Assembly: GCA_964016885.1 (NCBI GenBank)
Contig: OZ024764.1
Span: 5,518,001 to 5,582,000, forward strand
DNA from: Eledone cirrhosa
Lineage: Eukaryota
Length of the DNA: 64,000 bases
Reading direction: 5' to 3'
Made by a program: the position numbers and the translations under genes. Below are positions 9,001 through 64,000 of this stretch, one piece after another; positions within the stretch are counted from its first letter, which is position 1; each line of letters opens with the position of its first letter. A model generated the notes under the pieces. The model saw only the letters and a program-made list of their open reading frames with translations, was not told the DNA's origin and made no database searches.

Positions 9001-12000
9001 ATTTCTCTCTAGATATACCTACTGCTATAGTCTCACATTTAGACCTCCTTCTCTCTAGATGTACCTACTGCTATAGTCTTACATTTAGACCTGTTCCTCT
9101 CTAGATGTACCTACTGCTATAGTCTCACATTTAGACCTGTTTCTCTCTAGATATACCTACTGCTATAGTCTCACATTTAGACCCGTTTCTGTCTAGATGT
9201 ACCTACTGCTATAGTCTCACATTTAGACCTGTTTCTCTCTAGATATACCTACTGCTGTAGTCACACATTTAGACCTGTTTCTCTCTAGATATACCTACTG
9301 CTATAGTATTACATTTAGACCTGTTTCTCTCTAGATATACCTACTGCTATAGTCTCACATTTAGACCTGTTTCTCTCTAGATATACCTACTGCTATAGTC
9401 TTACATTTAGACCTGTATCTCTCTAGATATACCTACAGCTATAGTCTCACATTTAGACCTATTTCTCTCGAGATATACCTATTGATATAGTCTTACATTT
9501 AGACCTGTATCTCTCTAGATATACCTACTGCTATAGTCTCACATTTAGACCTGTTTCTCTCTAGATATACCTACTGCTATAGTCTTACATTTAGACCTGT
9601 TTCTCTCTAGATGTACCTACTGCTATAGTCTCACATTTAGACCTGGTTCTCTCTAGATGTACCTACTGATATAGTCTCACATTTAGACCTGTTTCTCTCT
9701 AGATGTACCTACTGCTATAGTCTCACATTTAGACCTGTTTCTCTCTAGATGTACCTACTGCTATAGTCTTACATTTAGACTTGTTCCTCTCTAGATGTAC
9801 CTACTGCTATAGTCTCACATTTAGATCTGTTTCTCTCTAGATATACCTACTGCTGTAGTCTCACATTTAGACCTGTTTCTCTCTAGATGTACCTACTGCT
9901 ATAGTCTCACATTTAGACCTGTTTCTCTCTAGATATACCTACTGATATAGTCTTACATTTGGACCTGTTTCTCTCTAGATATACCTACAACTATAGTCTG
10001 ACATTTAGACCTATTTCTATCTAGATATACCTACTGATATAGTCTTACATTTAGACCTGTTTCTCTCTAGATATACCTACTGCAATGGTCTTACATTTAG
10101 ACCTGTTTCTCTCTAGATATACCTACTGCTATAGTCTCACATTTAGACCTATTTCTCTCTAGATATACCTACTGATATAGTCTTACATTTAGACCTGCTT
10201 CTCTCTAGATATACCTACTGCAATGGTCTTACATTTAGATCTGTTTCTCTCTAGATATACCTACTGCTATAGTCTCACATTTAGACCTGTTTCTCACTAC
10301 ATGTACCTACTGCTATAGTCTCACATTTAGACCTGTTTCTCTCTAGATGTACCTACTGCTATAGTCTCACATTTAGACCGGTTTCTCTCTAGATATACCT
10401 ACTGCTGTAGTCTCACAGTTAGACCTGTTTCTCTCTAGATATACCTACTGCTATAGTCTTACATTTAGACCTGTTTCTCTCTAGATATACCTACTGTAAT
10501 GGTCTTACATTTAGACCTGTTTCTCACTAGATATACCTACTGCTATAGTCTCACATTTAGACCTCTTTCTCTCTAGATATACCTACTGCTGTAGTCTCAC
10601 ATTTCGACCCGTTTCTCTCCAGATATACCTACTGCTATAGTCTCACATTTAGACCCGTTTCTCTCTAGATATACCTACTGCTATAGTCTTACATTTAGAC
10701 CTCTTTCTCTCTAGATGTACCTACTGCTATAGTCTCACATTTAGACCTGTTTCTCTCTAGATATACCTACTGCTATAGTCTCACATTTAGACCCGTTTCT
10801 CTCTAGATGTACCTACTGATATAGTCTCACATTTAGACCTGTTTCTCTCTAGATATACCTACTGCTGTAGTCTCACATTTAGACCTGTTTCTCTCTAGAT
10901 ATACCTACTGCTATAGTATTACATTCAGACCTGTTTCTCTCTAGATATACCTACTGATATAGTCTTACATTTAGACCTGTATCTCTCTAGATATACCTAC
11001 AGCTATAGTCTCACATTTAGACCTATTTCTCTCGAGATATACCTATTGATATAGTCTTACATTTAGACCTGTATCTCTCTAGATATACCTACTGCTATAG
11101 TCTCACATTTAGACCTGTTTCTCTCTAGATATACCTACTGCTATAGTCTTACATTTAGACCTGTTTCTCTCTAGATGTACCTACTGATATAGTCTCACAT
11201 TTAGACCTGTTTCTCTCTAGATGTACCTACTGCTATAGTCTTACATTTAGACCTGTTTCTCTCTAGATGTACCTACTGCTATAGTCTTACATTTAGACCT
11301 GGTTCTCTCTAGATGTACCTACTGATATAGTCTCACATTTAGACCTATTTCTCTCTAGATATACCTACTGATATAGTCTTACATTTAGACCTGCTTCTCT
11401 CTAGATATACCTACTGCAATGGTCTTACATTTAGACCTGTTTCTCTCTAGATATACCTACTGCTATAGTCTCACATTTAGACCTGTTTCTCTCTAGATGT
11501 ACCTACTGCTATAGTCTCACATTTAGACCGGTTTCTCTCTAGATATACCTACTGCTGTAGTCTCACAGTTAGACCTGTTTCTCTCTAGATATACCTACTG
11601 CTATAGTCTTACATTTAGACCTGTTTCTCTCTAGATATACCTACAGCTATAGTCTCACAATTAGACCTGTTTCTCTCTAGATATACCTACTGTAATGGTC
11701 TTACATTTAGACCCGTTTCTCTCTAGATGTACCTACTGCTATAGTCTCACATTTAGACCTGTTTCTCTCTAGATATACCTACTGCTGTAGTCTCACATTT
11801 AGACCTGTTTCTCTCTAGATATACCTACTGCTATAGTATTACATTTAGACCCGTTTCTCTCTAGATATACCTACTGCAATGGTCTTACATTTAGACCTGT
11901 TTCTCTCTAGATATACCTACTGATATAGTCTCACATTTAGACCTGTTTCTCTCTAGATATACCTACTGCTGTAGTCTCACATTTAGACCTGTTTCTCTCT

Positions 12001-15000
12001 AGATGTACCTACTGCTATAGTCTTACATTTAGACCTATTTCTCTCTAGATATACCTACTGCTATAGTCTCACTTTAGACCTGTTTCTCTCTAGATATACC
12101 TACTGCTATAGTCTCACATTTAGACCTGTTTCTCTCTAGATGTACCTACCGCTATAGTCTCACATTTAGACCTGTTTCTCTCTAGATATACCTACTGCTA
12201 TAGTCTTACATTTAGACCTGTTTCTCTCTAGATATACCTACTGCTGTAGTCTCACATTTAGACCTGTTTCTCTCTAGATATACCTAGTGCTATAGTCTTA
12301 CATCTAGACCTGTTTCTCTCTGATATACCTACTGCTGTAGTCTCACATTTAGACCTGTTTCTCTCTAGATGTACCTACTGCTATAGTCTCACATTTAGAC
12401 CTGTTTCTCTCTAGATATACCTACTGATATAGTCTTACATTTAGACCTGTTTCTCTCTAGATATACCTACTGCTGTAGTCTCACATTTAGACCTGTTTCT
12501 CTCTAGATATACCTACTGCTATAGTCTTACATTTAGACCTGTATCTCTCTAGATATACCTACTGCTATAGTCTCACATTTAGACCTGTTTCTATCTACAT
12601 GTACCTACTGCTATAGTCTCACATTTAGACCTGTTTCTCTCTAGATGTACCTACTGCTATAGTCTCACATTTAGACCGGTTTCTCTCTAGATATACCTAC
12701 TGCTGTAGTCTCACAGTTAGACCTGTTTCTCTCTAGATATACCTACTGCTATAGTCTTACATTTAGACCTGTTTCTCTCTAGATATACCTACTGTAATGG
12801 TCTTACATTTAGACCTGTTTCTCACTAGATATACCTACTGCTATAGTCTCACATTTAGACCTCTTTCTCTCTAGATATACCTACTGCTGTAGTCTCACAT
12901 TTCGACCCGTTTCTCTCCAGATATACCTACTGCTATAGTCTCACATTTAGACCCGTTTCTCTCTAGATATACCTACTGCTATAGTCTTACATTTAGACCT
13001 CTTTCTCTCTAGATGTACCTACTGCTATAGTCTTACATTTAGACCTGTTCCTCTCTAGATGTACCTACTGCTATAGTCTCACATTTAGACCTGTTTCTCT
13101 CTAGATATACCTACTGCTATAGTCTCACATTTAGACCTGTTTCTCTCTAGATGTACCTACTGCTATAGTCTCACATTTAGACCGGTTTCTCTCTAGATAT
13201 ACCTACTGCTGTAGTCTCACAGTTAGACCTGTTTCTCTCTAGATATACCTACAGCTATAGTCTCACAATTAGACCCGTTTCTCTCTAGATATACCTACTG
13301 TAATGGTCTTACATTTAGACCTGTTTGTCACTAGATATACATACTGCTATAGTCTCACATTTAGACCGCTTTCTCTCTAGATATACCTACTGCTGTAGTC
13401 TCACATTTAGACCCATTTCTCTCTAGATATACCTACTGCTATAGTCTCACATTTAGACCTCCTTCTCTCTAGATGTACCTACTGCTATAGTCTTACATTT
13501 AGACCTGTTCCTCTCTAGATGTACCTACTGCTATAGTCTCACATTTAGACCTGTTTCTCTCTAGATATACCTACTGCTATAGTCTCACATTTAGACCCGT
13601 TTCTCTCTAGATGTACCTACTGCTATAGTCTCACATTTAGACCTGTTTCTCTCTAGATATACCTACTGCTGTAGTCACACATTTAGACCTGTTTCTCTCT
13701 AGATATACCTACTGCTATAGTATTACATTTAGACCTGTTTCTCTCTAGATATACCTACTGCTATAGTCTCACATTTAGACCTGTTTCTCTCTAGATATAC
13801 CTACTGCTATAGTCTTACATTTAGACCTGTATCTCTCTAGATATACCTACAGCTATAGTCTCACATTTAGACCTATTTCTCTCGAGATATACCTATTGAT
13901 ATAGTCTTACATTTAGACCTGTATCTCTCTAGATATACCTACTGCTATAGTCTCACATTTAGACCTGTTTCTCTCTAGATATACCTACTGCTATAGTCTT
14001 ACATTTAGACCTGTTTCTCTCTAGATGTACCTACTGCTATAGTCTCACATTTAGACCTGGTTCTCTCTAGATGTACCTACTGATATAGTCTCACATTTAG
14101 ACCTGTTTCTCTCTAGATGTACCTACTGCTATAGTCTCACATTTAGACCTGTTTCTCTCTAGATGTACCTACTGCTATAGTCTTACATTTAGACTTGTTC
14201 CTCTCTAGATGTACCTACTGCTATAGTCTCACATTTAGATCTGTTTCTCTCTAGATATACCTACTGCTATAGTCTCACATTTAGACCCGTTTCTCTCTAG
14301 ATGTACCTACTGCTATAGTCTCACATTTAGACCTGTTTCTCTCTAGATATACCTACTGCTGTAGTTTCACATTTAGACCTGTTTCTCTCTAGATATACCT
14401 ACTGCTATAGTATTACATTTAGACCTGTTTCTCTCTATATATACCTACTGCTATAGTCTCACATTTAGACCTGTTTCTCTGTAGATATACCTACTGCTAT
14501 AGTCTTACATTTAGACCTGTATCTCTCTAGATATACCTACAGCTATAGTCTCACATTTAGACCTATTTCTCTCTAGATATACCTACTGCTGTAGTCTTAC
14601 ATTTAGACCTGTTTCTCTCTAGATATACCTACAGCTATAGTCTCACATTTAGACCTATTTCTCTCGAGATATACCTATTGATATAGTCTTACATTTAGAC
14701 CTGTATCTCTCTAGATATCCCTACTGCTATAGTCTCACATTTAGACCTGTTTCTCTCTAGATATACCTACTGCTGTAGTCTCACATTTAGACCTGTTTCT
14801 CTCTAGATGCACCTACTGCTATAGTCTTACATTTAGACCTGTTTCTCTCTAGATATACCTACTGCTATAGTCTCACTTTAGACCTGTTTCTCTCTAGATA
14901 TACCTACTGATATAGTCTCACATTTAGACCTGTTTCTCTCTAGATGTACCTACCGCTATAGTCTCACATTTAGACCTGTTTCTCTCTAGATATACCTACT

Positions 15001-15022
15001 GCTATAGTCTTACATTTAGACC
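1..15022. repeat. 46-bp tandem satellite array, left arm (about 326 monomers; continues beyond window start)
   Basis: Period counted directly: TAGATA at 181 and again at 227. Consensus TAGATATACCTACTGCTATAGTCTCACATTTAGACCTGTTTCTCTC (17/46 GC, no CpG, one XbaI site TCTAGA across each monomer junction). Monomers differ by a few substitutions; occasional 45-bp monomers (e.g. CTCACTTTAG at 341). Confidence 0.99.
15019..15022 (+). repeat. Target-site duplication, left copy (GACC)
   Basis: TTTA-GACC|TGTAGTAAG on the left and CCTAAA|GACC-TGTTTCTC on the right. An uninterrupted monomer has a single GACC. A 5-bp reading (AGACC) is formally possible. Confidence 0.85.
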
Positions 15023-15422
15023 TGTAGTAAGAGTTGTCTCCCCTGCCACGACAATTGAATCGCTGTTCTCTAGACAGGAAGTAGGTGGAGTTGCTTCCCT
15101 TTGGGATTGACCAAACTCCCTAGTGGTCACTTCCGGTCAAGAGAGATAAAAGGAGCGATTAACCGCGAAATCTCTCTCTCGCCTCCTGATTCCCGAAGTG
15201 GTAACATCTTCGACCATAGCTGGATTCTTTCTGGACGACCCTTTCGTTACCAGCACAATCCAGCTCACCAGCCTGACAACTTCACAATGGCATTATTGCC
15301 ATCGGGTAACAACCCTTTACCTTATACACCTTTGACTTCTATGAAGTAAAACTTTATCACACACACCAGTACTCTTTGTCTTTTATATTATGTTGCATGT
15401 GCACCGATATCTATTTCCTAAA
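15023..15422 (+). repeat. 5' LTR (400 bp)
   Basis: Starts TGTAGTAAGAG and ends CTATTTCCTAAA. Direct repeat of 20677-21076 with no difference found by eye. Followed by one nucleotide and then the PBS. Confidence 0.96.
15075..15170 (+). promoter_or_regulatory. Putative U3 promoter: ETS-type motifs (CAGGAAGT 15075-15082, ACTTCCGG 15129-15136) and TATA-like GATAAAA (15145-15151)
   Basis: Motif matches at the expected position within an LTR. Function is inferred only. Confidence 0.4.
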
Positions 15423-15423
15423 G

Positions 15424-15441
15424 TGGTGACCCTGACGTGAT
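15424..15441 (+). other. Primer-binding site, tRNA-Trp
   Basis: TGGTGACCCTGACGTGAT matches the complement of the 3' end of metazoan tRNA-Trp (TGGTGACCCCGACGTGAT) at 17/18; the difference allows a G-U pair. Lies 1 nt after the 5' LTR. Confidence 0.92.
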
Positions 15442-15903
15442 ATTTTTTTTTCAATGGGAAATGGTTATACGGTGTATCTGATATGATATAGGACACAAAC
15501 AAAAAAAAAAAAAAAGAAAAAAGAGAAAAATATAACACCTACAATTATTGACACGCAGACAAACCACAATTCTATAAATGTTTTCACCGTCCTCATTTTC
15601 TCTCCTTTTTCTGCCTTTCGCTTCTCGCAAAAAAATAATTTTTATGAGGATGACAAGATGGAGTCTCTCTTCTTTTTAAATAGTGTTTTGGCGCGAAATA
15701 GTCCGCCATGTTGGATTTTTTTTTGTTGAGTTTTTAGGCCCCCCGAAATTAACGTAGATAACAGCATTCAAGTAATCGCTGGTTCGCACACTGTCCCGGA
15801 TGCATTAGTTTTCCGGTTCAGTGCTCTGACGAAAGATTTTAGTTTCCATTTACTGTTACCTTAGAGACATTTTCCCCATACGGTAGATCACTACGGCATA
15901 CCA

Positions 15904-16698
15904 ATGGCTTCCCACTCTGTTCTGCCAACGTACACGGGCGACGTAAGGTTGTGGTTCTCGCAATTAGAAGCTTTCTTCAGGGCGAACAGAGTCGACGAGG
16001 AACTACAGCATTCTGTGGTCCTCAGTGCCATTCCGCCGGCAATTCTCCCAGCGGTCAAGGACCTCGTGTTGGAGGCAACGGCAGAGTCGTCGTACGCGTC
16101 TCTGAAGGCTGAAATACTCAGCCGGACGGAACAGTCGTCAGAGAGGAGATTTAGGGCTCTGGTCCACCTGGAGCACATAGGGGATGGCACACCATCGAAC
16201 CTCCTTAGGCGGATGAAGGACCTAACGGAGGGGTCTGCAGCGGAAACTGCCCTGCTGAAGCAGTTGTTCTTTTCGCGCCTGCCGACGAACGTACAGGCAA
16301 TTTTGGCCCCCATGAGGGATTCGAGCTCGGTTGAGCAGCTTGCCTCATCGGCGGACAAGATATTCGAGGTGACGAATGCCGGAGACAGTGACCCCCTCGC
16401 CGCTGTTCAACACCCAGCTCGGGCCACACACGGCCATGCGATCTACGCGGCAGCACCAACGGATAGCTTGGCGATCATTGCGATGCAAAGGTCCATTCAG
16501 GAGCTCACCATGGAGCTCCACAAGATGAAGGCCTTGTGTGGTGGCTGTTCGCGCGCCCGCAGTCGCGGGAGATCGCAAAGTTTCAGACGACGGTCCAAAT
16601 CACCTGGTTCAGCCTTATGCTGGTACCACGAGCGGTTCGCGGAGAACGCGAAGCACTGCGTGCAACCTTGCTCCTATCATAAGGCGGGAAACGCTTAA
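15904..16698 (+). CDS. gag: Gag (264 aa) with CHCC nucleocapsid motif
   Basis: N-terminal [16 protein letters not shown] and later [17 protein letters not shown] are typical of this Gag type. An RS-rich stretch ([19 protein letters not shown]) is followed by [18 protein letters not shown] = C-x2-H-x9-C-x3-C. Confidence 0.94.
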
Positions 16699-16727
16699 GA
16701 GGTCCTCTGATGGGGACAGATGGCCTC
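16686..16727 (+). promoter_or_regulatory. -1 programmed ribosomal frameshift signal (slippery G GGA AAC plus hairpin)
   Basis: Heptamer G GGA AAC (16686-16692) is in the gag frame. A 6-nt spacer precedes the stem-loop GAGGTC-C-TCTG-[ATGGGGA]-CAGA-T-GGCCTC (16699-16727). Pol is in the -1 frame and is open from the heptamer (GGG AAA CGC TTA AGA GGT CCT CTG ATG). Confidence 0.85.
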
Positions 16728-19700
16728 AACATAAAGCCACCAAACCGCCATTTCTTCATTAAGGACCTAATATCCGGAAGAGGTTTCCTCGTGGATACAG
16801 GAGCCTCCTGTAGTATCTGGCCGGTCCATTGCCTGAAAGATACCCCCATAGAGTCATCTGTCACGCTGCAGGCAGTTAACCACTCGTCTATAAAGACGTA
16901 CGGGCAAATCTCGCTCCCTCTTAAATTCCTAAATCTTCGAAGGGATTTTAAGTGGATTTTTACGGTTGCCGATTTGCCATATCCCATCTTAGGAGCGGAT
17001 TTCCTCCACAACTTCTCTTTAACTGTGGACGTCCGTGGCCAACGCCTGGTGGATAACATCACCGGCTTTTCAATTCATGGCCAGGAAGCCAAGGCCCCAA
17101 TAGTCAGCCCCGTGTTCTTTATTGCTGCCGCTGGTGACGCTTACCATGCGTTACTGGGTTCTTTCCCGGAGCTCACGGATGGAAATTTTCGAGTCACTGA
17201 CCCAACACACTCGACCGAACATTTTGTTTCCACCACCGGTGCCCCAGTGTTTTCGCGCCCACGCCGCTTACCGACGGAAAAATTAAAGGCAGCACGGTCC
17301 GAGTTCGACCATATGCTGCAGCTGGGCATTATTCGCCCATCTACGAGTCCTTGGGCTTCACCGTTACACATGGTGCCCAAGACTTCCGGCGACTGGAGAC
17401 CCACAGGGGATTATAGGAGGTTAAATGCCATGACCGTCCCGGATAGGTATCCCATTCCCCATCTCCACGATTTTGCATCTTCACTGCAGGGGTGTAGGAT
17501 TTTTTCTAAGCTAGATTTAGTGCGAGCCTACCACCAAATTCCGGTCAGGAAGGAGGATATTCCGAAAACTGCAATTACAACCCCTTTCGGATCATTCGAA
17601 TTTTTGACCATGCCTTTCGGACTCAGGAACGCCGCTAGCACTTTTCAGCGGTTCATGGACGAGGTCACGCGTGGTCTGGACTTCGTTTATGCTTACATAG
17701 ACGATATTCTCGTCGCTAGTTCCTCTCCGGAAGAGCATATGCGCCACATGCTTCTCTTGCTTCGGCGACTTCAGGATTACCGCGTTCGCGTGAATCCTGC
17801 AAAGTGTGTTTTCGGTTCCACTTCCCTACATTTTTTAGGCCACCTCATCGACGCCGAAGGTATTAGGCCGCTCCCTGAGCGAGTTCAAGCCATACAGGAG
17901 TTACCGCCGCCTACTACACTTCACCAGTTGCGTCACTTCTTAGGCCTAATCAATTTCTATAGGCGTTTCATTCCTCATTGTGCTAATTGGCTATCTTCCC
18001 TTACTGACATTTTAAAAAAACGTCGTAAGAAGAATGAAGACATTTCCTTGACACAAGGACAGCTTCAGGACTTCCAGTCTGCCAAGACAGCCCTCGCTAG
18101 TTCTTCTTTGCTAGCCCACCCGGTACCAGAGGCCAAGCTTTCGCTTTGTGTTGATGCATCTGATACCGCTGTGGGTGCAGTTTTACAGCAGTCTTACGCT
18201 GAAAGCCAACAACCTTTGGCATTTTTCTCGAGGAAGTTGAAACCAGCAGAAACGCGTTATAGCACGTTTGGGCGGGAATTATTAGCCATATATCTGTCGG
18301 TGAAACATTTCTCTCATATCCTTGAGGGGAGAAATTTTACGGTTTTTACCGACCACAAACCGTTGACCTTCGCTTTGAGGGCCAAAGCCGACAGATATTC
18401 GCCCAGAGAGACAAGGCACCTGGACTACGTTTCACAATTTACAAACGATATCCAGCACATTGCCGGCTCGCACAACATAGTTGCAGACGCATTATCTCGT
18501 TTGCCAATTAGCTCCATCTCGTCATCCCAGGACATCGATTTAGGTCGTTTAGCTGCAGACCAACCTGCACTCCAATCGTTGGACACTCTTTCCACCGAAT
18601 TTGCGACTTGCATTTTCAAATATCTGCCCTTGTCCACCACCGACAGGCAGATCCTTTGTGATGTATCCACTGATGCACCACGACCACTTGTTCCTGAGAC
18701 TCACCGTCGAATTGTGTTCCTGGCTCTGCACAACATTTCTCATCCAGGATCGGCTGCCACAGTTAAACTTATAACAGCCAGATTCTTCTGGCCTAATATG
18801 AGGCGAGACATTGCTGTTTTTTGCCGTTCCTGTATCGCTTGCCAGAAATCGAAGATCCATAAACACATCCGGACTCCACTTGGTACTTTCACCACTCCAG
18901 ATGCCCGGTTTCAACACATCCACATTGACATCGTTGGACCTTGGCCATTCAGCAGTGGATATTCATACTTATTGACGTGTGTCGATCGCTTTTCGAGATG
19001 GCCTGAGGCCATACCTTTACCAGACATGACGGCTGAGACTGTAGCACGTGCCCTGGTATCAGGGTGGATTACCCGCTTTGGGGTACCAACTACACTCACG
19101 ACAGACCGTGGTAGACAATTCGAGTCCCATCTCTTCTCTGAGCTCACAAAAATAATTGGAGCTCAACGGATTCGGACCACAGCCTATCATCCTGCTTCAA
19201 ATGGAATGGTGGAACGATTCCACCGCCAATTAAAGGCCGCTCTTCGCGCCTATCCAGACTCTCAACGTTGGAGCGAGTACCTTCCTATTGTGTTATTAGG
19301 AATTCGGTCATCAATAAAGGAGGACCTTGGGTTCTCCCCGGCCGAATTAATCTACGGTGCTCCTCTAGCGTTGCCTGGGCAAATGCTTGCCCCTGTTGAT
19401 CTTGCTTTCCAAGATCCGCTTTCCTACGTATCCCGTCTGCGTTCTTATTTACAGGACCTGCCGCCGATGGATACGAGGAAGCAAACTGTAAAACATGCGG
19501 TCCCGAGGGACATTGCCTCGTGGACCCATGTGTTCGTAAGGAACGATGCTGTGAGACCACCCCTCACACAACCATACTCTGGACCCTACCGTGTGTTAGC
19601 ACGCACTGACAAACATTTCACAGTAGACGTTAAGGGGTCCAGAGAGACAATTTCGGTGGATAGACTGAAAAGGGCACACAATGACGCTCATACACCCGAG

Positions 19701-19838
19701 CCACAAATACCCCAATCTTTCACCATTGTGCATACACCTGCTCCTTCTGCCCCACCATCACCTACATACAAGACTACGACCCGTTCCGGTCGGAGAGTCC
19801 ACTGGCCCAAAAAGTTCTGCCAAACTATTTTTATATGA
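16710..19838 (+). CDS. pol: Pol polyprotein: aspartic protease, reverse transcriptase, RNase H, integrase (probably made as a Gag-Pol fusion from 16686)
   Basis: Uninterrupted 1042-aa ORF. Protease FLVDTGAS; [25 protein letters not shown]; RNase [35 protein letters not shown]; integrase zinc finger H..HPG..CIAC; DDE core [22 protein letters not shown]; GPY/F module PYSGPYRV. No chromodomain visible. Confidence 0.98.
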
Positions 19839-19855
19839 ACTGGCCATTGGAGCCT

Positions 19856-19857
19856 TA

Positions 19858-19888
<31 letters not shown>

Positions 19889-19891
19889 TTT
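19856..19891. repeat. (TA)n microsatellite followed by poly(T) in the element's 3' UTR
   Basis: TATATATA... run followed by a T run, shortly after the pol stop codon. Confidence 0.9.
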
Positions 19892-20242
19892 GTTTTTGCT
19901 GTTCTTATTTATTTGATTTATTGTATTGCAATGTACCTCTCATGACCATTTCACTGGATGTATATATATGTTTTTTCGTTCCCTTTACAATGAACATTTT
20001 AAGCTACATTCTTCTCTTTGCCGGTTTATAAGTTTGCAATGTAAATTTACCGTTGATAACCGCGCATTTAGTAAGAATGCTTATTTCTCTGGTCGCTGGC
20101 CTCTGGACCCTTCCAGATCAACGCATTCTCAACATCGACCATCAACTTCGGCTGCTATTTCTAGCACTTTGCGCAACTCATTTTTTCTAAAAAATTTTTG
20201 TCTACTGTGAGTTTAAACACCGAATACGCTCACTCAGCGAGA

Positions 20243-20379
20243 CAACAGCAGCAGCAACAGCAATACAGCAGCAGCAGCAACAGCAATACAGCAGCAACAA
20301 CAGCAATACAACAACAGCAACAGCAACAGCACTACAGCAGCAACAACAGCAATACAACAGCAGCAACAGCAACAGCAAC
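20243..20379 (+). repeat. Compound (CAG/CAA)n repeat with periodic TA interruptions in the 3' UTR
   Basis: CAACAGCAGCAGCAACAGCAATACAGCAGCAG..., with CAATA or CACTA recurring every 20-26 bp. Confidence 0.9.
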
Positions 20380-20656
20380 CAAAGCCAGAGAATTTATTTT
20401 TGCAGCACTCTTCCTGTGAGAAAATCCATACGGAGGTTGGAAATTCACGATATACCACAGAACAGAGACCACCTGCATTCATTCTCTGGAACACACTTTC
20501 TTTCCTGCTGTCATGTGACTGCACACCTGTGAACTATATTTTGTACATTTGAACTTTTGACTTTTCTTACTTCCATTACTCTGTACCATATTTTTCATGC
20601 CTCTTACATGCTCGCCATCTTACTCCATGCATGCTTCTTTCGATTTTTTATGTTTT

Positions 20657-20676
20657 AAAAATCTGGCGGGGGATAC
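20657..20676 (+). other. Polypurine tract region (plus-strand primer)
   Basis: AAAAATCTGGCGGGGGATAC lies directly before the TGT of the 3' LTR; the G-rich core is imperfect. Confidence 0.7.
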
Positions 20677-21076
20677 TGTAGTAAGAGTTGTCTCCCCTGC
20701 CACGACAATTGAATCGCTGTTCTCTAGACAGGAAGTAGGTGGAGTTGCTTCCCTTTGGGATTGACCAAACTCCCTAGTGGTCACTTCCGGTCAAGAGAGA
20801 TAAAAGGAGCGATTAACCGCGAAATCTCTCTCTCGCCTCCTGATTCCCGAAGTGGTAACATCTTCGACCATAGCTGGATTCTTTCTGGACGACCCTTTCG
20901 TTACCAGCACAATCCAGCTCACCAGCCTGACAACTTCACAATGGCATTATTGCCATCGGGTAACAACCCTTTACCTTATACACCTTTGACTTCTATGAAG
21001 TAAAACTTTATCACACACACCAGTACTCTTTGTCTTTTATATTATGTTGCATGTGCACCGATATCTATTTCCTAAA
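20677..21076 (+). repeat. 3' LTR (400 bp)
   Basis: Direct repeat of 15023-15422 at an offset of 5654. The ORF track also gives identical 82-aa translations in the two copies. Confidence 0.96.
20999..21004 (+). terminator. Putative variant polyadenylation signal AGTAAA in the 3' LTR
   Basis: No AATAAA in the LTR. AGTAAA is followed by CA repeats and a T/GT-rich tract (TCTTTGTCTTTT). Confidence 0.4.
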
Positions 21077-21080
21077 GACC
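21077..21080 (+). repeat. Target-site duplication, right copy (GACC)
   Basis: CCTAAA|GACC TGTTTCTCTC; the satellite resumes in register. Confidence 0.85.
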
Positions 21081-24000
21081 TGTTTCTCTCTAGATATACC
21101 TACTGCTATAGTCTGACATTTAGACCTGTATCTCTCTAGATATACCTACAGCTATAGTCTCACATTTAGACCTATTTCTCTCGAGATATACCTATTGATA
21201 TAGTCTTACATTTAGACCTGTATCTCTCTAGATATACCTACTGCTATAGTCTCACATTTAGACCTGTTTCTCTCTAGATATACCTACTGCTGTAGTCTCA
21301 CATTTAGACCTGTTTCTCTCTAGATGTACCTACTGCTATAGTCTCACATTTAGACCTGTTTCTCTCTAGATATACCTACTGATATAGTCTTACATTTGGA
21401 CCTGTTTCTCTCTAGATATACCTACAACTATAGTCTGACATTTAGACCTATTTCTATCTAGATATACCTACTGATATAGTCTTACATTTAGACCTGTTTC
21501 TCTCTAGATATACCTACTGCAATGGTCTTACATTTAGACCTGTTTCTCTCTAGATATACCTACTGCTATAGTCTCACATTTAGACCTATTTCTCTCTAGA
21601 TATACCTACTGATATAGTCTTACATTTAGACCTGCTTCTCTCTAGATATACCTACTGCAATGGTCTTACATTTAGATCTGTTTCTCTCTAGATATACCTA
21701 CTGCTATAGTCTCACATTTAGACCTGTTTCTCACTACATGTACCTACTGCTATAGTCTCACATTTAGACCTGTTTCTCTCTAGATGTACCTACTGCTATA
21801 GTCTCACATTTAGACCGGTTTCTCTCTAGATATACCTACTGCTGTAGTCTCACAGTTAGACCGGTTTCTCTCTAGATATACCTACTGCTATAGTCTTACA
21901 TTTAGACCTGTTTCTCTCTAGATATACCTACTGTAATGGTCTTACATTTAGACCTGTTTCTCACTAGATATACCTACTGCTATAGTCTCACATTTAGACC
22001 TCTTTCTCTCTAGATATACCTACTGCTGTAGTCTCACATTTCGACCCGTTTCTCTCCAGATATACCTACTGCTATAGTCTCACATTTAGACCCGTTTCTC
22101 TCTAGATATACCTACTGCTATAGTCTTACATTTAGACCTCTTTCTCTCTAGATGTACCTACTGCTATAGTCTTACATTTAGACCTGTTCCTCTCTAGATG
22201 TACCTACTGCTATAGTCTCACATTTAGACCTGTTTCTCTCTAGATATACCTACTGCTATAGTCTCACATTTAGACCCGTTTCTCTCTAGATGTACCTACT
22301 GATATAGTCTCACATTTAGACCTGTTTCTCTCTAGATATACCTACTGCTGTAGTCTCACATTTAGACCTGTTTCTCTCTAGATATACCTACTGCTATAGT
22401 ATTACATTCAGACCTGTTTCTCTCTAGATATACCTACTGATATAGTCTTACATTTAGACCTGTATCTCTCTAGATATACCTACAGCTATAGTCTCACATT
22501 TAGACCTATTTCTCTCGAGATATACCTATTGATATAGTCTTACATTTAGACCTGTATCTCTCTAGATATACCTACTGCTATAGTCTCACATTTAGACCTG
22601 TTTCTCTCTAGATATACCTACTGCTATAGTCTTACATTTAGACCTGTTTCTCTCTAGATGTACCTACTGATATAGTCTCACATTTAGACCTGTTTCTCTC
22701 TAGATGTACCTACTGCTATAGTCTTACATTTAGACCTGTTTCTCTCTAGATGTACCTACTGCTATAGTCTTACATTTAGACCTGGTTCTCTCTAGATGTA
22801 CCTACTGATATAGTCTCACATTTAGACCTATTTCTCTCTAGATATACCTACTGATATAGTCTTACATTTAGACCTGCTTCTCTCTAGATATACCTACTGC
22901 AATGGTCTTACATTTAGACCTGTTTCTCTCTAGATATACCTACTGCTATAGTCTCACATTTAGACCTGTTTCTCTCTAGATGTACCTACTGCTATAGTCT
23001 CACATTTAGACCGGTTTCTCTCTAGATATACCTACTGCTGTAGTCTCACAGTTAGACCTGTTTCTCTCTAGATATACCTACTGCTATAGTCTTACATTTA
23101 GACCTGTTTCTCTCTAGATATACCTACAGCTATAGTCTCACAATTAGACCTGTTTCTCTCTAGATATACCTACTGTAATGGTCTTACATTTAGACACGTT
23201 TCTCTCTAGATGTACCTACTGCTATAGTCTCACATTTAGACCTGTTTCTCTCTAGATATACCTACTGCTGTAGTCTCACATTTAGACCTGTTTCTCTCTA
23301 GATATACCTACTGCTATAGTATTACATTTAGACCCGTTTCTCTCTAGATATACCTACTGCAATGGTCTTACATTTAGACCTGTTTCTCTCTAGATATACC
23401 TACTGATATAGTCTCACATTTAGACCTGTTTCTCTCTAGATATACCTACTGCTGTAGTCTCACATTTAGACCTGTTTCTCTCTAGATGTACCTACTGCTA
23501 TAGTCTTACATTTAGACCTATTTCTCTCTAGATATACCTACTGCTATAGTCTCACTTTAGACCTGTTTCTCTCTAGATATACCTACTGCTATAGTCTCAC
23601 ATTTAGACCTGTTTCTCTCTAGATGTACCTACCGCTATAGTCTCACATTTAGACCTGTTTCTCTCTAGATATACCTACTGCTATAGTCTTACATTTAGAC
23701 CTGTTTCTCTCTAGATATACCTACTGCTGTAGTCTCACATTTAGACCTGTTTCTCTCTAGATATACCTAGTGCTATAGTCTTACATCTAGACCTGTTTCT
23801 CTCTGATATACCTACTGCTGTAGTCTCACATTTAGACCTGTTTCTCTCTAGATGTACCTACTGCTATAGTCTCACATTTAGACCTGTTTCTCTCTAGATA
23901 TACCTACTGATATAGTCTTACATTTAGACCTGTTTCTCTCTAGATATACCTACTGCTGTAGTCTCACATTTAGACCTGTTTCTCTCTAGATATACCTACT

Positions 24001-27000
24001 GCTATAGTCTTACATTTAGACCTGTATCTCTCTAGATATACCTACTGCTATAGTCTCACATTTAGACCTGTTTCTCTCTACATGTACCTACTGCTATAGT
24101 CTCACATTTAGACCTGTTTCTCTCTAGATGTACCTACTGCTATAGTCTCACATTTAGACCGGTTTCTCTCTAGATATACCTACTGCTGTAGTCTCACAGT
24201 TAGACCTGTTTCTCTCTAGATATACCTACTGCTATAGTCTTACATTTAGACCTGTTTCTCTCTAGATATACCTACTGTAATGGTCTTACATTTAGACCTG
24301 TTTCTCACTAGATATACCTACTGCTATAGTCTCACATTTAGACCTCTTTCTCTCTAGATATACCTACTGCTGTAGTCTCACATTTCGACCCGTTTCTCTC
24401 CAGATATACCTACTGCTATAGTCTCACATTTAGACCCGTTTCTCTCTAGATATACCTACTGCTATAGTCTTACATTTAGACCTCTTTCTCTCTAGATGTA
24501 CCTACTGCTATAGTCTTACATTTAGACCTGTTCCTCTCTAGATGTACCTACTGCTATAGTCTCACATTTAGACCTGTTTCTCTCTAGATATACCTACTGC
24601 TATAGTCTCACATTTAGACCTGTTTCTCTCTAGATGTACCTACTGCTATAGTCTCACATTTAGACCGGTTTCTCTCTAGATATACCTACTGCTGTAGTCT
24701 CACAGTTAGACCTGTTTCTCTCTAGATATACCTACAGCTATAGTCTCACAATTAGACCCGTTTCTCTCTAGATATACCTACTGTAATGGTCTTACATTTA
24801 GACCTGTTTGTCACTAGATATACATACTGCTATAGTCTCACATTTAGACCGCTTTCTCTCTAGATATACCTACTGCTGTAGTCTCACATTTAGACCCATT
24901 TCTCTCTAGATATACCTACTGCTATAGTCTCACATTTAGACCTCCTTCTCTCTAGATGTACCTACTGCTATAGTCTTACATTTAGACCTGTTCCTCTCTA
25001 GATGTACCTACTGCTATAGTCTCACATTTAGACCTGTTTCTCTCTAGATATACCTACTGCTATAGTCTCACATTTAGACCCGTTTCTCTCTAGATGTACC
25101 TACTGCTATAGTCTCACATTTAGACCTGTTTCTCTCTAGATATACCTACTGCTGTAGTCACACATTTAGACCTGTTTCTCTCTAGATATACCTACTGCTA
25201 TAGTATTACATTTAGACCTGTTTCTCTCTAGATATACCTACTGCTATAGTCTCACATTTAGACCTGTTTCTCTCTAGATATACCTACTGCTATAGTCTTA
25301 CATTTAGACCTGTATCTCTCTAGATATACCTACAGCTATAGTCTCACATTTAGACCTATTTCTCTCGAGATATACCTATTGATATAGTCTTACATTTAGA
25401 CCTGTATCTCTCTAGATATACCTACTGCTATAGTCTCACATTTAGACCTGTTTCTCTCTAGATATACCTACTGCTATAGTCTTACATTTAGACCTGTTTC
25501 TCTCTAGATGTACCTACTGCTATAGTCTCACATTTAGACCTGGTTCTCTCTAGATGTACCTACTGATATAGTCTCACATTTAGACCTGTTTCTCTCTAGA
25601 TGTACCTACTGCTATAGTCTCACATTTAGACCTGTTTCTCTCTAGATGTACCTACTGCTATAGTCTTACATTTAGACTTGTTCCTCTCTAGATGTACCTA
25701 CTGCTATAGTCTCACATTTAGATCTGTTTCTCTCTAGATATACCTACTGCTATAGTCTCACATTTAGACCCGTTTCTCTCTAGATGTACCTACTGCTATA
25801 GTCTCACATTTAGACCTGTTTCTCTCTAGATATACCTACTGCTGTAGTTTCACATTTAGACCTGTTTCTCTCTAGATATACCTACTGCTATAGTATTACA
25901 TTTAGACCTGTTTCTCTCTATATATACCTACTGCTATAGTCTCACATTTAGACCTGTTTCTCTGTAGATATACCTACTGCTATAGTCTTACATTTAGACC
26001 TGTATCTCTCTAGATATACCTACAGCTATAGTCTCACATTTAGACCTATTTCTCTCTAGATATACCTACTGCTGTAGTCTTACATTTAGACCTGTTTCTC
26101 TCTAGATATACCTACAGCTATAGTCTCACATTTAGACCTATTTCTCTCGAGATATACCTATTGATATAGTCTTACATTTAGACCTGTATCTCTCTAGATA
26201 TCCCTACTGCTATAGTCTCACATTTAGACCTGTTTCTCTCTAGATATACCTACTGCTGTAGTCTCACATTTAGACCTGTTTCTCTCTAGATGCACCTACT
26301 GCTATAGTCTTACATTTAGACCTGTTTCTCTCTAGATATACCTACTGCTATAGTCTCACTTTAGACCTGTTTCTCTCTAGATATACCTACTGATATAGTC
26401 TCACATTTAGACCTGTTTCTCTCTAGATGTACCTACCGCTATAGTCTCACATTTAGACCTGTTTCTCTCTAGATATACCTACTGCTATAGTCTTACATTT
26501 AGACCTGTTTCTCTCTAGATATACCTACTGCTATAGTCTGACATTTAGACCTGTATCTCTCTAGATATACCTACAGCTATAGTCTCACATTTAGACCTAT
26601 TTCTCTCGAGATATACCTATTGATATAGTCTTACATTTAGACCTGTATCTCTCTAGATATACCTACTGCTATAGTCTCACATTTAGACCTGTTTCTCTCT
26701 AGATATACCTACTGCTGTAGTCTCACATTTAGACCTGTTTCTCTCTAGATGTACCTACTGCTATAGTCTCACATTTAGACCTGTTTCTCTCTAGATATAC
26801 CTACTGATATAGTCTTACATTTGGACCTGTTTCTCTCTAGATATACCTACAACTATAGTCTGACATTTAGACCTATTTCTATCTAGATATACCTACTGAT
26901 ATAGTCTTACATTTAGACCTGTTTCTCTCTAGATATACCTACTGCAATGGTCTTACATTTAGACCTGTTTCTCTCTAGATATACCTACTGCTATAGTCTC

Positions 27001-30000
27001 ACATTTAGACCTATTTCTCTCTAGATATACCTACTGATATAGTCTTACATTTAGACCTGCTTCTCTCTAGATATACCTACTGCAATGGTCTTACATTTAG
27101 ATCTGTTTCCCTCTAGATATACCTACTGCTATAGTCTCACATTTAGACCTGTTTCTCACTACATGTACCTACTGCTATAGTCTCACATTTAGACCTGTTT
27201 CTCTCTAGATGTACCTACTGCTATAGTCTCACATTTAGACCGGTTTCTCTCTAGATATACCTACTGCTGTAGTCTCACAGTTAGACCGGTTTCTCTCTAG
27301 ATATACCTACTGCTATAGTCTTACATTTAGACCTGTTTCTCTCTAGATATACCTACTGTAATGGTCTTACATTTAGACCTGTTTCTCACTAGATATACCT
27401 ACTGCTATAGTCTCACATTTAGACCTCTTTCTCTCTAGATATACCTACTGCTGTAGTCTCACATTTCGACCCGTTTCTCTCCAGATATACCTACTGCTAT
27501 AGTCTCACATTTAGACCCGTTTCTCTCTAGATATACCTACTGCTATAGTCTTACATTTAGACCTCTTTCTCTCTAGATGTACCTACTGCTATAGTCTTAC
27601 ATTTAGACCTGTTCCTCTCTAGATGTACCTACTGCTATAGTCTCACATTTAGACCTGTTTCTCTCTAGATATACCTACTGCTATAGTCTCACATTTAGAC
27701 CCGTTTCTCTCTAGATGTACCTACTGATATAGTCTCACATTTAGACCTGTTTCTCTCTAGATATACCTACTGCTGTAGTCTCACATTTAGACCTGTTTCT
27801 CTCTAGATATACCTACTGCTATAGTATTACATTCAGACCTGTTTCTCTCTAGATATACCTACTGATATAGTCTTACATTTAGACCTGTATCTCTCTAGAT
27901 ATACCTACAGCTATAGTCTCACATTTAGACCTATTTCTCTCGAGATATACCTATTGATATAGTCTTACATTTAGACCTGTATCTCTCTAGATATACCTAC
28001 TGCTATAGTCTCACATTTAGACCTGTTTCTCTCTAGATATACCTACTGCTATAGTCTTACATTTAGACCTGTTTCTCTCTAGATGTACCTACTGATATAG
28101 TCTCACATTTAGACCTGTTTCTCTCTAGATGTACCTACTGCTATAGTCTTACATTTAGACCTGTTTCTCTCTAGATGTACCTACTGCTATAGTCTTACAT
28201 TTAGACCTGGTTCTCTCTAGATGTACCTACTGATATAGTCTCACATTTAGACCTATTTCTCTCTAGATATACCTACTGATATAGTCTTACATTTAGACCT
28301 GCTTCTCTCTAGATATACCTACTGCAATGGTCTTACATTTAGACCTGTTTCTCTCTAGATATACCTACTGCAATGGTCTTACATTTAGACCTGTTTCTCT
28401 CTAGATATACCTACTGCTATAGTCTCACATTTAGACCTGTTTCTCTCTAGATGTACCTACTGCTATAGTCTCACATTTAGACCGGTTTCTCTCTAGATAT
28501 ACCTACTGCAATGGTCTTACATTTAGACCTGTTTCTCTCTAGATATACCTACTGATATAGTCTCACATTTAGACCTGTTTCTCTCTAGATATACCTACTG
28601 CTGTAGTCTCACATTTAGACCTGTTTCTCTCTAGATATACCTACTGCTATAGTATTACATTCAGACCTGTTTCTCTCTAGATATACCTACTGATATAGTC
28701 TTACATTTAGACCTGTATCTCTCTAGATATACCTACAGCTATAGTCTCACATTTAGACCTATTTCTCTCGAGATATACCTATTGATATAGTCTTACATTT
28801 AGACCTGTATCTCTCTAGATATACCTACTGCTATAGTCTCACATTTAGACCTGTTTCTCTCTAGATATACCTACTGCTATAGTCTTACATTTAGACCTGT
28901 TTCTCTCTAGATGTACCTACTGATATAGTCTCACATTTAGACCTGTTTCTCTCTAGATGTACCTACTGCTATAGTCTTACATTTAGACCTGTTTCTCTCT
29001 AGATGTACCTACTGCTATAGTCTTACATTTAGACCTGGTTCTCTCTAGATGTACCTACTGATATAGTCTCACATTTAGACCTATTTCTCTCTAGATATAC
29101 CTACTGATATAGTCTTACATTTAGACCTGCTTCTCTCTAGATATACCTACTGCAATGGTCTTACATTTAGACCTGTTTCTCTCTAGATATACCTACTGCT
29201 ATAGTCTCACATTTAGACCTGTTTCTCTCTAGATGTACCTACTGCTATAGTCTCACATTTAGACCGGTTTCTCTCTAGATATACCTACTGCTGTAGTCTC
29301 ACAGTTAGACCTGTTTCTCTCTAGATATACCTACTGCTATAGTCTTACATTTAGACCTGTTTCTCTCTAGATATACCTACAGCTATAGTCTCACAATTAG
29401 ACCTGTTTCTCTCTAGATATACCTACTGTAATGGTCTTACATTTAGACCCGTTTCTCTCTAGATGTACCTACTGCTATAGTCTCACATTTAGACCTGTTT
29501 CTCTCTAGATATACCTACTGCTGTAGTCTCACATTTAGACCTGTTTCTCTCTAGATATACCTACTGCTATAGTATTACATTTAGACCCGTTTCTCTCTAG
29601 ATATACCTACTGCAATGGTCTTACATTTAGACCTGTTTCTCTCTAGATATACCTACTGATATAGTCTCACATTTAGACCTGTTTCTCTCTAGATATACCT
29701 ACTGCTGTAGTCTCACATTTAGACCTGTTTCTCTCTAGATGTACCTACTGCTATAGTCTTACATTTAGACCTATTTCTCTCTAGATATACCTACTGCTAT
29801 AGTCTCACTTTAGACCTGTTTCTCTCTAGATATACCTACTGCTATAGTCTCACATTTAGACCTGTTTCTCTCTAGATGTACCTACCGCTATAGTCTCACA
29901 TTTAGACCTGTTTCTCTCTAGATATACCTACTGCTATAGTCTTACATTTAGACCTGTTTCTCTCTAGATATACCTACTGCTGTAGTCTCACATTTAGACC

Positions 30001-63000: not shown

Positions 63001-64000
63001 GCTATAGTCTCACATTTAGACCTGTTTCTCTCTAGATATACCTACTGCTATAGTCTTACATTTATACCTGTTTCTCTCTAGATATACCTACTGCTGTCGT
63101 CTCATATTTAGACCTGTTTCTCTCTAGATATACCTACTGCTATAGTCTTACATTTAGACCTGTTTCTCTCTAGATATACCTACTGCTGTAGTCTCACATT
63201 TAGACCTGTTTCTCTCTAGATGTACCTACTGCTATAGTCTCACATTTAGACCTGTTTCTCTCTAGATATACCTACTGATATAGTCTTACATTTAGACCTG
63301 TTTCTCTCTAGATGTACCTACTGCTATAGTCTCACATTTAGACCTGTTTCTCTCTAGATATACCTACTGCTATAGTCTTACATTTAGACCTGTTTCTCTC
63401 TAGATATACCTACTGCTATAGTCTTACATTTAGACCTGTTTCTCTCTCGATATACCTACAACTATAGTCTCACATTTAGACCTATTTCAATCTAGATATA
63501 CTTACTGATATAGTCTTACATTTAGACCTGTTTCTCTCTAGATATACCTACTGCAATGGTCTTACATTTAGACCTGTTTCTCTCTAGATATACCTACTGC
63601 TATAGTCTCACATTTAGACCTGTTTCTCTCTAGATGTACCTACTGCTATAGTCTTACATTTAGACCTGTTTCTCTCTAGATATACCTACTGCTGTAGTCT
63701 CACATTTAGACCTGTTTCTCTCTAGATATACCTACTGCTATAGTCTTACATTTAGACCTGTTTCTCTCTAGATATACCTACTGCTGTAGTCTCACATTTA
63801 GACCTGTTTCTCTCTAGATATACCTATTGATATAGTCTTACATTTAGACCTGTATCTCTCTAGATATACCTACTGCTATAGTCTCACATTTAGACCTCTT
63901 TCTCTCTAGATATACCTACTGCTATAGTCTCACATTTAGACCTGGTTCTCTTTAGATGTACCTACTGATATAGTCTCACATTTAGACCTGTTTCTCTCTA
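21077..64000. repeat. 46-bp tandem satellite array, right arm (about 933 monomers; continues beyond window end)
   Basis: Same monomer and orientation as the left arm. No other insertion or inversion seen. Confidence 0.99.

What the first reader, a model, noticed from the sequence alone, without database searches (positions are those of the whole stretch)
15023..21076. Intact, very recent CsRn1-like retrotransposon deep inside a satellite array: candidate centrophilic element
Seen: LTRs with no difference I could find over 400 bp, uninterrupted gag and pol, and all cis signals present, with at least 15 kb and 43 kb of pure satellite on either side. Known: centromere-colonising LTR elements are well described in plants (CRM, ATHILA, Tal1); I am not aware of this being established for the animal CsRn1 clade. 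Inference: an active family that may target satellite or CENP-A chromatin.
Basis: partly seen in the sequence, partly recalled or inferred. Interest (0 to 1): 0.7.

Follow-up and report, generated by a model that had tools for sequence, protein, structure and literature searches.

The report
Young CsRn1 retrotransposon in satellite array
A complete, very recently inserted jumping gene of a well-known animal group (CsRn1) sits alone in a long 46-base repeat block, where it likely landed by chance and was tolerated; nothing yet shows that it seeks out such repeats or that the block is a centromere.

Summary
15023-21076 is an intact CsRn1-type Ty3/gypsy element: identical 400-bp LTRs (TGT..AAA), 4-bp duplication GACC, tRNA-Trp-type primer site, CHCC gag, -1 frameshift into a stop-free PR-RT-RH-IN pol, no env or chromodomain. 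It is the only insertion in about 58 kb of 46-bp satellite. It lies in one copy of a 6.1-kb array duplication (3 substitutions) whose twin site is empty, so it is very young or was unfixed then. Targeting is not shown. No genome was held, so enrichment could not be tested, and read data were blind to satellite junctions. Indirect evidence leans against it: the integrase tail motif is clade-wide (77 of 90 homologues); 0 of 30 long-flank relatives from another animal lie inside satellite arrays, though 10 of 24 have identical LTRs; GACC fits a weak RRYY site preference (8 of 21 relatives). Young intact Gypsy elements in animal satellites are a published general pattern. The scan had not noted this element or satellite before, but noted two other CsRn1-like elements in satellites of this genome (unchecked). 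Verdict: new member of a known kind; centrophily about 12% likely.

The parts
3..15018 (+). 46-bp satellite array, left arm (continues beyond the window)
   Evidence: TRF; monomer parse
15019..15022 (+). Left target-site duplication GACC (RRYY type)
   Evidence: single copy in the empty paralogous monomers
15023..15422 (+). 5' LTR, 400 bp, TGT..AAA
15424..15441 (+). Primer-binding site, tRNA-Trp type; 11 of 12 match to the published CsRn1 motif (one C>T, which would give a G-U pair)
   Evidence: against PMC2582038 section 6
15904..16698 (+). gag, 264 aa, DUF7041; CX2HX9CX3C zinc finger at residues 239-256 (about 16618-16671)
16686..16692 (+). Slippery heptamer G GGA AAC in the gag frame; predicted -1 frameshift into pol
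   Evidence: frames; frameshifting itself inferred
16700..16768 (+). Predicted stimulatory stem-loop 7 nt downstream of the slippery site
   Evidence: -32.1 kcal/mol for 16680-16780, z -2.94, 0 of 200 shuffles as stable
16683..19838 (+). pol, 1051 aa: protease DTGA (38), RT YIDD (338), RNase H DAS (491), integrase HHCC and core, GPY motif, Pro/Ser/Thr linker, TRSGR tail; no chromodomain
19839..20664 (+). 3' untranslated region with (TA)n (19856-19880) and a CAG/CAA-rich tract (20235-20372); no env-like ORF
20665..20673 (+). G-rich polypurine tract ending 3 nt before the 3' LTR
   Evidence: same tract precedes the LTR in reads of runs X4 and X8
20677..21076 (+). 3' LTR, identical to the 5' LTR
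21077..21080 (+). Right target-site duplication GACC
21081..64000 (+). 46-bp satellite array, right arm, same strand and register (continues beyond the window)
22222..28336 (+). Second copy of a recently duplicated array block (offset 118 monomers); matches 10739-22911 minus the element with 3 substitutions in 6115 bp
26497..26542 (+). Empty paralogue of the insertion monomer, in identical context for 52 monomers upstream and 12 downstream

Best explanation
This is a complete CsRn1-type LTR retrotransposon with identical LTRs and a 4-bp target duplication inside a 46-bp satellite array, likely a recent copy of a dispersed multi-copy family that likely landed there without regional targeting and was likely tolerated because no gene was hit. 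Inferred life cycle, from the signals shown and from what is published for the clade: transcription from the 5' LTR; Gag, and Gag-Pol by -1 frameshift at G GGA AAC ahead of a stem-loop; reverse transcription primed by tRNA-Trp and the G-rich tract; integration by the DDE integrase with a 4-bp stagger. Within the monomer the integrase took a purine-purine-pyrimidine-pyrimidine site, which relatives also favour. The insertion is younger than the last local duplication of the array, or was unfixed when that duplication happened.
For: Shown: all structural parts. Empty twin site at 26497 in a block with 3 substitutions in 6115 bp, and two older empty paralogues at 6645 and 483. One insertion and no other fragment of the element in about 58 kb of array. 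The family is multi-copy and varied in a close relative: 1305 contigs of run X1 were laid, 323 at 99% or more, 476 at 95-99%, 506 at 90-95%. The integrase C-terminus, which sets centromere targeting in Tal1 (PMC11735389, passages), is the clade's common form: a [TS]R.GR motif follows GPY in 77 of 90 homologues that have GPY, out of 120 examined, and is in 18 of 21 dispersed relatives. Of 30 relatives with 10 kb or more of DNA (of 79 loci), none lies inside a long array; 24 have an LTR pair and Trp primer site, 10 of these 24 have identical LTRs, and 1 of 24 (L017) touches a 720-bp tandem repeat on one side. RRYY duplications in 8 of 21 relatives against 6% background (P 1.6e-5, pattern chosen after seeing the data, 16 possible patterns); RRYY sites are not enriched in this satellite (4.6%). 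Enrichment of Ty3/gypsy in pericentric heterochromatin of Anopheles is put down to low recombination and relaxed selection (PMC3026039, passages).
Against: No direct count of this family's insertion sites was possible. The dispersed relatives are only 50-55% identical, 29 of the 30 come from contigs that share one assembly prefix, their LTRs are short (about 130-240 bp), and such assemblies under-represent satellites. In Tal1 one R/K change flips targeting, so a shared motif cannot exclude a family-specific switch. Across 325 genomes, LTR elements in satellite arrays are younger and more intact than those outside, which the authors read as targeted integration. Two earlier unchecked notes describe other CsRn1-like elements in satellite arrays of this genome.
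Confidence: 0.68

Rival explanations
1. Centrophilic family: the integrase would recognise CENP-A chromatin, and the 46-bp array would be a functional centromere.
For: Very young intact insertion in a homogeneous, actively duplicating array (916 of 1259 monomers lie in identical runs of 12 or more; longest run 72 against 3-4 in 20 order shuffles). This is the pattern described for centromeric arrays across eukaryotes. Integrase C-termini can carry such targeting.
Against: One insertion only. No evidence that the array is centromeric; no fixed higher-order period (best lag 118 gives 13% identical monomers). Earlier unchecked notes list several other, unrelated large satellites in this genome. 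No chromodomain. Tail motif is clade-wide and present in dispersed relatives. The array is otherwise free of insertions over 58 kb.
Confidence: 0.12
2. Broad bias towards satellite or heterochromatin in general, by integration preference or by much stronger retention, without CENP-A dependence.
For: Two earlier notes of CsRn1-like elements in satellite arrays of this genome (e1-9587327, e1-9560544; not tested here). Ty3/gypsy density is several-fold higher in Anopheles heterochromatin (PMC3026039).
Against: 0 of 30 long-flank relatives lie inside arrays.
Confidence: 0.17
3. Assembly artefact: the element was joined into the array by mistake. A milder form: the 118-monomer duplication is two haplotypes, one with and one without the element, laid head to tail.
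For: No listed contig or read bridged the satellite-LTR junction in the runs laid. Satellites are hard to assemble.
Against: Exact TGT..AAA termini, an exact 4-bp duplication and a preserved satellite register are what integration leaves, not what a mis-join leaves. Similar exact duplications occur elsewhere in the array (72 monomers at offset 74, 32 at offset 32). The runs are of a related sample (about half of the 31-mers shared), most contig pieces were not displayed, and the PstI-type RAD runs cannot see a satellite with 0 PstI sites. The milder form would make the insertion heterozygous, which fits 'very recent'.
Confidence: 0.03

Closest known systems
CsRn1 clade of Ty3/gypsy (CsRn1, PwRn1, AgCR1-14; PMC2582038, section 6 and passages read)
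   Same: 4-bp duplication, TGT..AAA termini, tRNA-Trp primer site, CX2HX9CX3C gag, overlapping gag and pol in -1 frame (as in 9 AgCR elements), GPY motif, no chromodomain or env, near-identical LTRs. The clade is reported in 9 of 12 cephalopods examined (PMC6238403, passages).
   Different: A new family: closest proteins are 72-76% identical over RT-RNase H and unnamed; named relatives 48-66%. It sits in a long satellite, which the papers found do not report for the clade. That paper saw no target-site preference; the relatives here show a weak RRYY bias.
Tal1 (ALE4 Copia) and ATHILA/CRM centrophilic elements of plants (PMC11735389, passages read)
   Same: Young intact LTR element inside a satellite array; integrase with a C-terminal extension that could carry targeting.
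   Different: Tal1 targeting was shown by de novo insertions that follow CENH3; here there is one insertion, no CENP-A data, another superfamily or lineage, and no family-specific tail.
Gypsy elements in animal satellite centromeres (Anoplius array, Stinger errantiviruses of Ancistrocerus; bioRxiv 10.64898/2026.09.17.752431, section 7 and passages read)
   Same: Intact, high-LTR-identity Gypsy element embedded in an animal satellite array.
   Different: Those are multi-copy or clustered on every chromosome in predicted centromeres. The main text has 0 occurrences of CsRn1, mollusc, cephalopod or octopus; its supplements could not be seen.

Membership tests
CsRn1 clade (Ty3/gypsy) | Gag zinc finger CX2HX9CX3C instead of CCHC | tested here: met
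   gag residues 239-256; definition
CsRn1 clade (Ty3/gypsy) | Primer-binding site for tRNA-Trp | tested here: met
   15424-15441 matches the published 12-nt motif at 11 of 12; the host's own tRNA-Trp was not available
CsRn1 clade (Ty3/gypsy) | 4-bp target-site duplication | tested here: met
   GACC on both sides, single in the empty paralogue. A 5-bp reading is possible only if the LTR ends one base earlier; the published AAA terminus favours 4 bp
CsRn1 clade (Ty3/gypsy) | LTR termini TGT..AAA or TGT..ATA | tested here: met
CsRn1 clade (Ty3/gypsy) | Pol order PR-RT-RH-IN with GPY/F motif, no chromodomain, no env | tested here: met
   best solved relative Ty3 Gag-Pol, E 5.6e-104
CsRn1 clade (Ty3/gypsy) | RT/RNase H groups with named CsRn1, Kabuki or Boudicca references against other Gypsy clades | tested here: inconclusive
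   Quick tree of 38 rows (the careful search did not finish) places it among trematode, cestode, cnidarian and echinoderm relatives; no named reference or outgroup was available. 29 of 30 long related loci carry CHCC
Centrophilic retrotransposon | Family copies enriched in centromeric satellite over the genomic share | not testable with these tools
   No genome held; contigs and RAD reads do not resolve satellite junctions
Centrophilic retrotransposon | Host array is CENP-A chromatin | not testable with these tools
   No chromatin data; no centromere description for an octopod among the listings
Centrophilic retrotransposon | Multiple independent insertions in the array | tested here: inconclusive
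   1 insertion in the 58 kb visible; the rest of the array was not seen
Centrophilic retrotransposon | Recognisable targeting module at the integrase C-terminus (chromodomain or family-specific extension) | tested here: not met
   0 Pfam families in the last 62 aa; tail motif shared by 77 of 90 homologues. Single-residue switches would escape this test

The most novel reading that the evidence does not exclude
This is an active CsRn1 lineage of an octopus-type genome whose integrase is steered to CENP-A or satellite chromatin through its basic TRSGR tail. It would be the first centrophilic CsRn1 family, and its young insertions would mark cephalopod centromeres, which have no description in the papers searched.
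Probability: 0.12. Interest if true: 0.65.

Novelty: new member of a known kind. Interest (0 to 1): 0.25.

Why it matters
As it stands, it is a clean reference copy of a recently active CsRn1 family, with an internal empty-site control that orders the insertion against satellite turnover more tightly than LTR dating can (3 differences in 6115 bp, against 0 in 400 bp). If genome-wide mapping showed enrichment in CENP-A arrays, it would add an animal Gypsy lineage without a chromodomain to the short list of centromere-targeting elements and give a marker for centromeres in a group where none was found described.

Tried and rejected
Whole-genome mapping: no genome is held for this window, so the enrichment test was not run. 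Expression: no RNA holder listed; this is no evidence either way. Junction search in public runs: no satellite-to-LTR joint in X1, X4, X6, X7 or X2, X3, X4, X8; the listed loose ends at the LTR start are the polypurine tract (21 and 14 reads in X8, 1 contig in X4); 270 and 26 loose-end rows and 1448 and 196 pieces were not displayed; uninformative for the reasons given under the artefact rival. Copy number from contig depth: satellite about 51,000 against about 500 for the matching LTR contig and 4-12 for three low-depth contigs in X2 and X3; the tool says depth is no copy number and the peak may be saturated (a cap near 50,000 is recalled, not from a call), so it was not used. Microhomology-guided insertion: LTR and element match the satellite no better than shuffles (scores 19 and 21 against shuffled means 17.3 and 22.2); rejected. 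Mammalian CENP-B box (motif recalled): 0 matches; not expected outside mammals. Fixed higher-order repeat: not found. Extra ORFs in the UTRs and antisense to gag: 0 of 7 reach a Pfam cut-off; no env. Satellite 24-mer in metagenome contigs: 0 matches. Pol in viral contigs: 0. Earlier-findings look-ups by pol DNA, by satellite and by place: nothing. My LTR-pair finder failed on the window itself, picking satellite repeats, though flank tandem coverage read 1.0 on both sides as expected. Literature: 'CsRn1' gave 37 papers and 'CsRn1' with 'centromer' gave 5; no title or abstract start links the clade to centromeres; passages were read in 5 CsRn1-mentioning papers only.

Full report
OBSERVATION. 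The element runs from 15023 to 21076. The two LTRs (15023-15422, 20677-21076) are identical over 400 bp, begin TGT and end AAA, and are flanked by GACC on both sides. One base after the 5' LTR lies an 18-nt primer site (15424-15441); a G-rich tract ends 3 nt before the 3' LTR. gag (15904-16698) and pol (16683-19838) are stop-free and overlap in the -1 frame. A G GGA AAC heptamer in the gag frame (16686-16692) is followed 7 nt later by a stem-loop that folds better than 200 of 200 shuffles (z -2.94). Pfam gives DUF7041 for gag and protease (weak), RT, RNase H, integrase zinc finger and core for pol; the catalytic motifs DTGA, YIDD, DAS and HHCC are present. The rest of the window is one 46-bp array: 1259 monomers, 1243 of 46 bp and 16 of 45 bp, one strand, no other interruption.

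IDENTITY. PMC2582038 (section 6 and passages) defines the CsRn1 clade by a CX2HX9CX3C gag finger, a tRNA-Trp primer site, 4-bp duplications, TGT..AAA or TGT..ATA termini, a GPY/F motif, and no chromodomain or env. Every one is met here. A formal tree with named references was not possible; a quick tree of 38 rows places RT-RNase H next to an unnamed cluster at 72-76% identity, among flatworm, cnidarian and echinoderm relatives. Earlier scan notes call this genome octopus-like; I did not test that. If so, the clade is expected: it was found in 9 of 12 cephalopods (PMC6238403, passages).

AGE AND ACTIVITY. Zero differences in 400 bp bound LTR divergence below about 0.75% (rule of three, my arithmetic). 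The array gives a tighter marker. The block 10739-22911, without the element, matches 22222-28336 at an offset of 118 monomers with 3 substitutions in 6115 bp, and the paralogous monomer at 26497 is empty, as are older paralogues at 6645 and 483. So the insertion came after that duplication, or the duplicate came from an element-free chromosome while the insertion was unfixed. No mutation rate is available, so I give no date. Public runs of a close relative hold about half of the element's 31-mers and many variants. Among the 40 variant rows displayed (of 568), 17 coding sites differ from the window in all or nearly all X1 depth, and 12 of these are synonymous against 29% expected (P 0.0005); of the other 9 coding rows, 4 are synonymous. 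This suggests the window copy descends from a lineage that kept replicating under selection, not from a decaying copy. Present-day activity is untested.

TARGETING. The decisive test could not be run: no genome is held. The reads gave no satellite-LTR joint, but short-read contigs break at such junctions and the RAD libraries start at PstI sites, of which the satellite has none, so this says nothing. Four indirect tests were possible. (1) Local density: one insertion and no solo LTR or fragment in about 58 kb. (2) Integrase tail: no Pfam domain in the last 62 aa; its motif is in 77 of 90 homologues with GPY, of 120 examined. (3) Context of relatives: of 79 loci, 30 have 10 kb or more; none lies in a long array; 24 have an LTR pair with a Trp primer site (6 dropped: 3 without a pair, 3 with a wrong pair), 10 of the 24 have identical LTRs, and one touches a 720-bp tandem repeat. 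Young, intact CsRn1-type copies with the same tail (18 of 21) are therefore common in ordinary DNA. These relatives are distant (50-55%), nearly all from one assembly, and satellite-poor assembly could bias them. (4) Site choice: 8 of 21 relatives with a clean duplication have an RRYY tetramer against 6% background (post hoc pattern); GACC is RRYY, and such sites are no more frequent in this satellite (4.6%). Local sequence may explain where in the monomer it landed, not why it is in the array. There is no LTR-satellite microhomology beyond chance.

IS THE ARRAY A CENTROMERE? Unknown. It is homogeneous and turns over by block duplication (916 of 1259 monomers in identical runs of 12 or more; longest 72 against 3-4 in shuffles), which fits centromeric and non-centromeric satellites alike. 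Earlier unchecked notes list many unrelated large satellites in this genome, some grown from retrotransposon tails, including a 46-49-bp unit; a look-up with this satellite returned nothing, so a link is not shown. In the oyster, even the most abundant satellite does not cover all centromeres (PMC7348941, passages). Searches listed no octopod centromere study.

COMPARISON. A 325-genome atlas (bioRxiv 10.64898/2026.09.17.752431; abstract, section 7 and passages; supplements not seen and may list CsRn1-type or mollusc cases) finds Gypsy the most enriched superfamily in satellite arrays, with array-resident copies younger and more intact, and gives wasp examples; it does not name CsRn1. In Anopheles, Ty3/gypsy excess in pericentric heterochromatin is put down to low recombination and relaxed selection (PMC3026039, passages). 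Searches for CsRn1 (37 papers), CsRn1 with centromer (5) and Boudicca with FISH (2) listed nothing on centromere targeting by this clade; PMC3601003 and PMC11117352 (passages) add nothing on it.

VERDICT. A real, intact, very young CsRn1-type insertion with an unusually good internal empty-site control: a new member of a known kind. Untargeted landing with tolerance is the best reading (0.68), a broad satellite or heterochromatin bias next (0.17), true centrophily less likely (0.12), artefact unlikely (0.03). Interest 0.25; about 0.65 if genome-wide mapping and CENP-A data showed targeting.

Noticed in passing
window 15061-15114 (and 20715-20768): A block of about 40 bp in the LTR has about 18,000 summed contig depth against about 500 for the matching LTR contig in X2 and X3, so it is likely shared with a far more abundant sister LTR family. 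It holds an ETS-like core at 15076, and a second lies at 15130 (the ETS label is recalled).
   Followed up: partly
21 loci among L007-L077, and window 15019-15022: CsRn1-type relatives show a weak RRYY target-duplication bias (8 of 21 against 6%; RxxY 13 of 21), whereas PMC2582038 saw no preference.
   Followed up: partly
window about 19780-19810 (pol C-terminus): A conserved TRSGR-x-V-x-(W/F)-P motif after a variable Pro/Ser/Thr linker ends most CsRn1-type integrases (77 of 90). It resembles arginine-anchor motifs that bind the nucleosome acidic patch (recalled, untested); the 3 papers listed (listing only) do not appear to address it.
   Followed up: partly
window 1-15018 and 21081-64000: The satellite grows by irregular block duplications of 1.5-6 kb, not a fixed higher-order unit: identical runs of 72, 65, 45, 41, 36 and 32 monomers at different offsets.
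   Followed up: yes
window 20235-20372: A CAG/CAA-rich tract in the 3' UTR gives poly-Gln or poly-Cys open frames of about 100 aa without Pfam support.
   Followed up: partly
run X4 laid on window 14935-15445: In X4 the satellite depth (18.7) is below LTR depth (50), the reverse of X2 and X3. The run's kind is not on record; unexplained.
   Followed up: no
L017 7186-7905: A related element directly abuts a 32-bp tandem repeat of 22.7 copies on its 5' side, and no clean target duplication was found.
   Followed up: no
protein P0074: A CsRn1-type pol is labelled Streptococcus dysgalactiae by its source; likely host DNA in a bacterial assembly.
   Followed up: no
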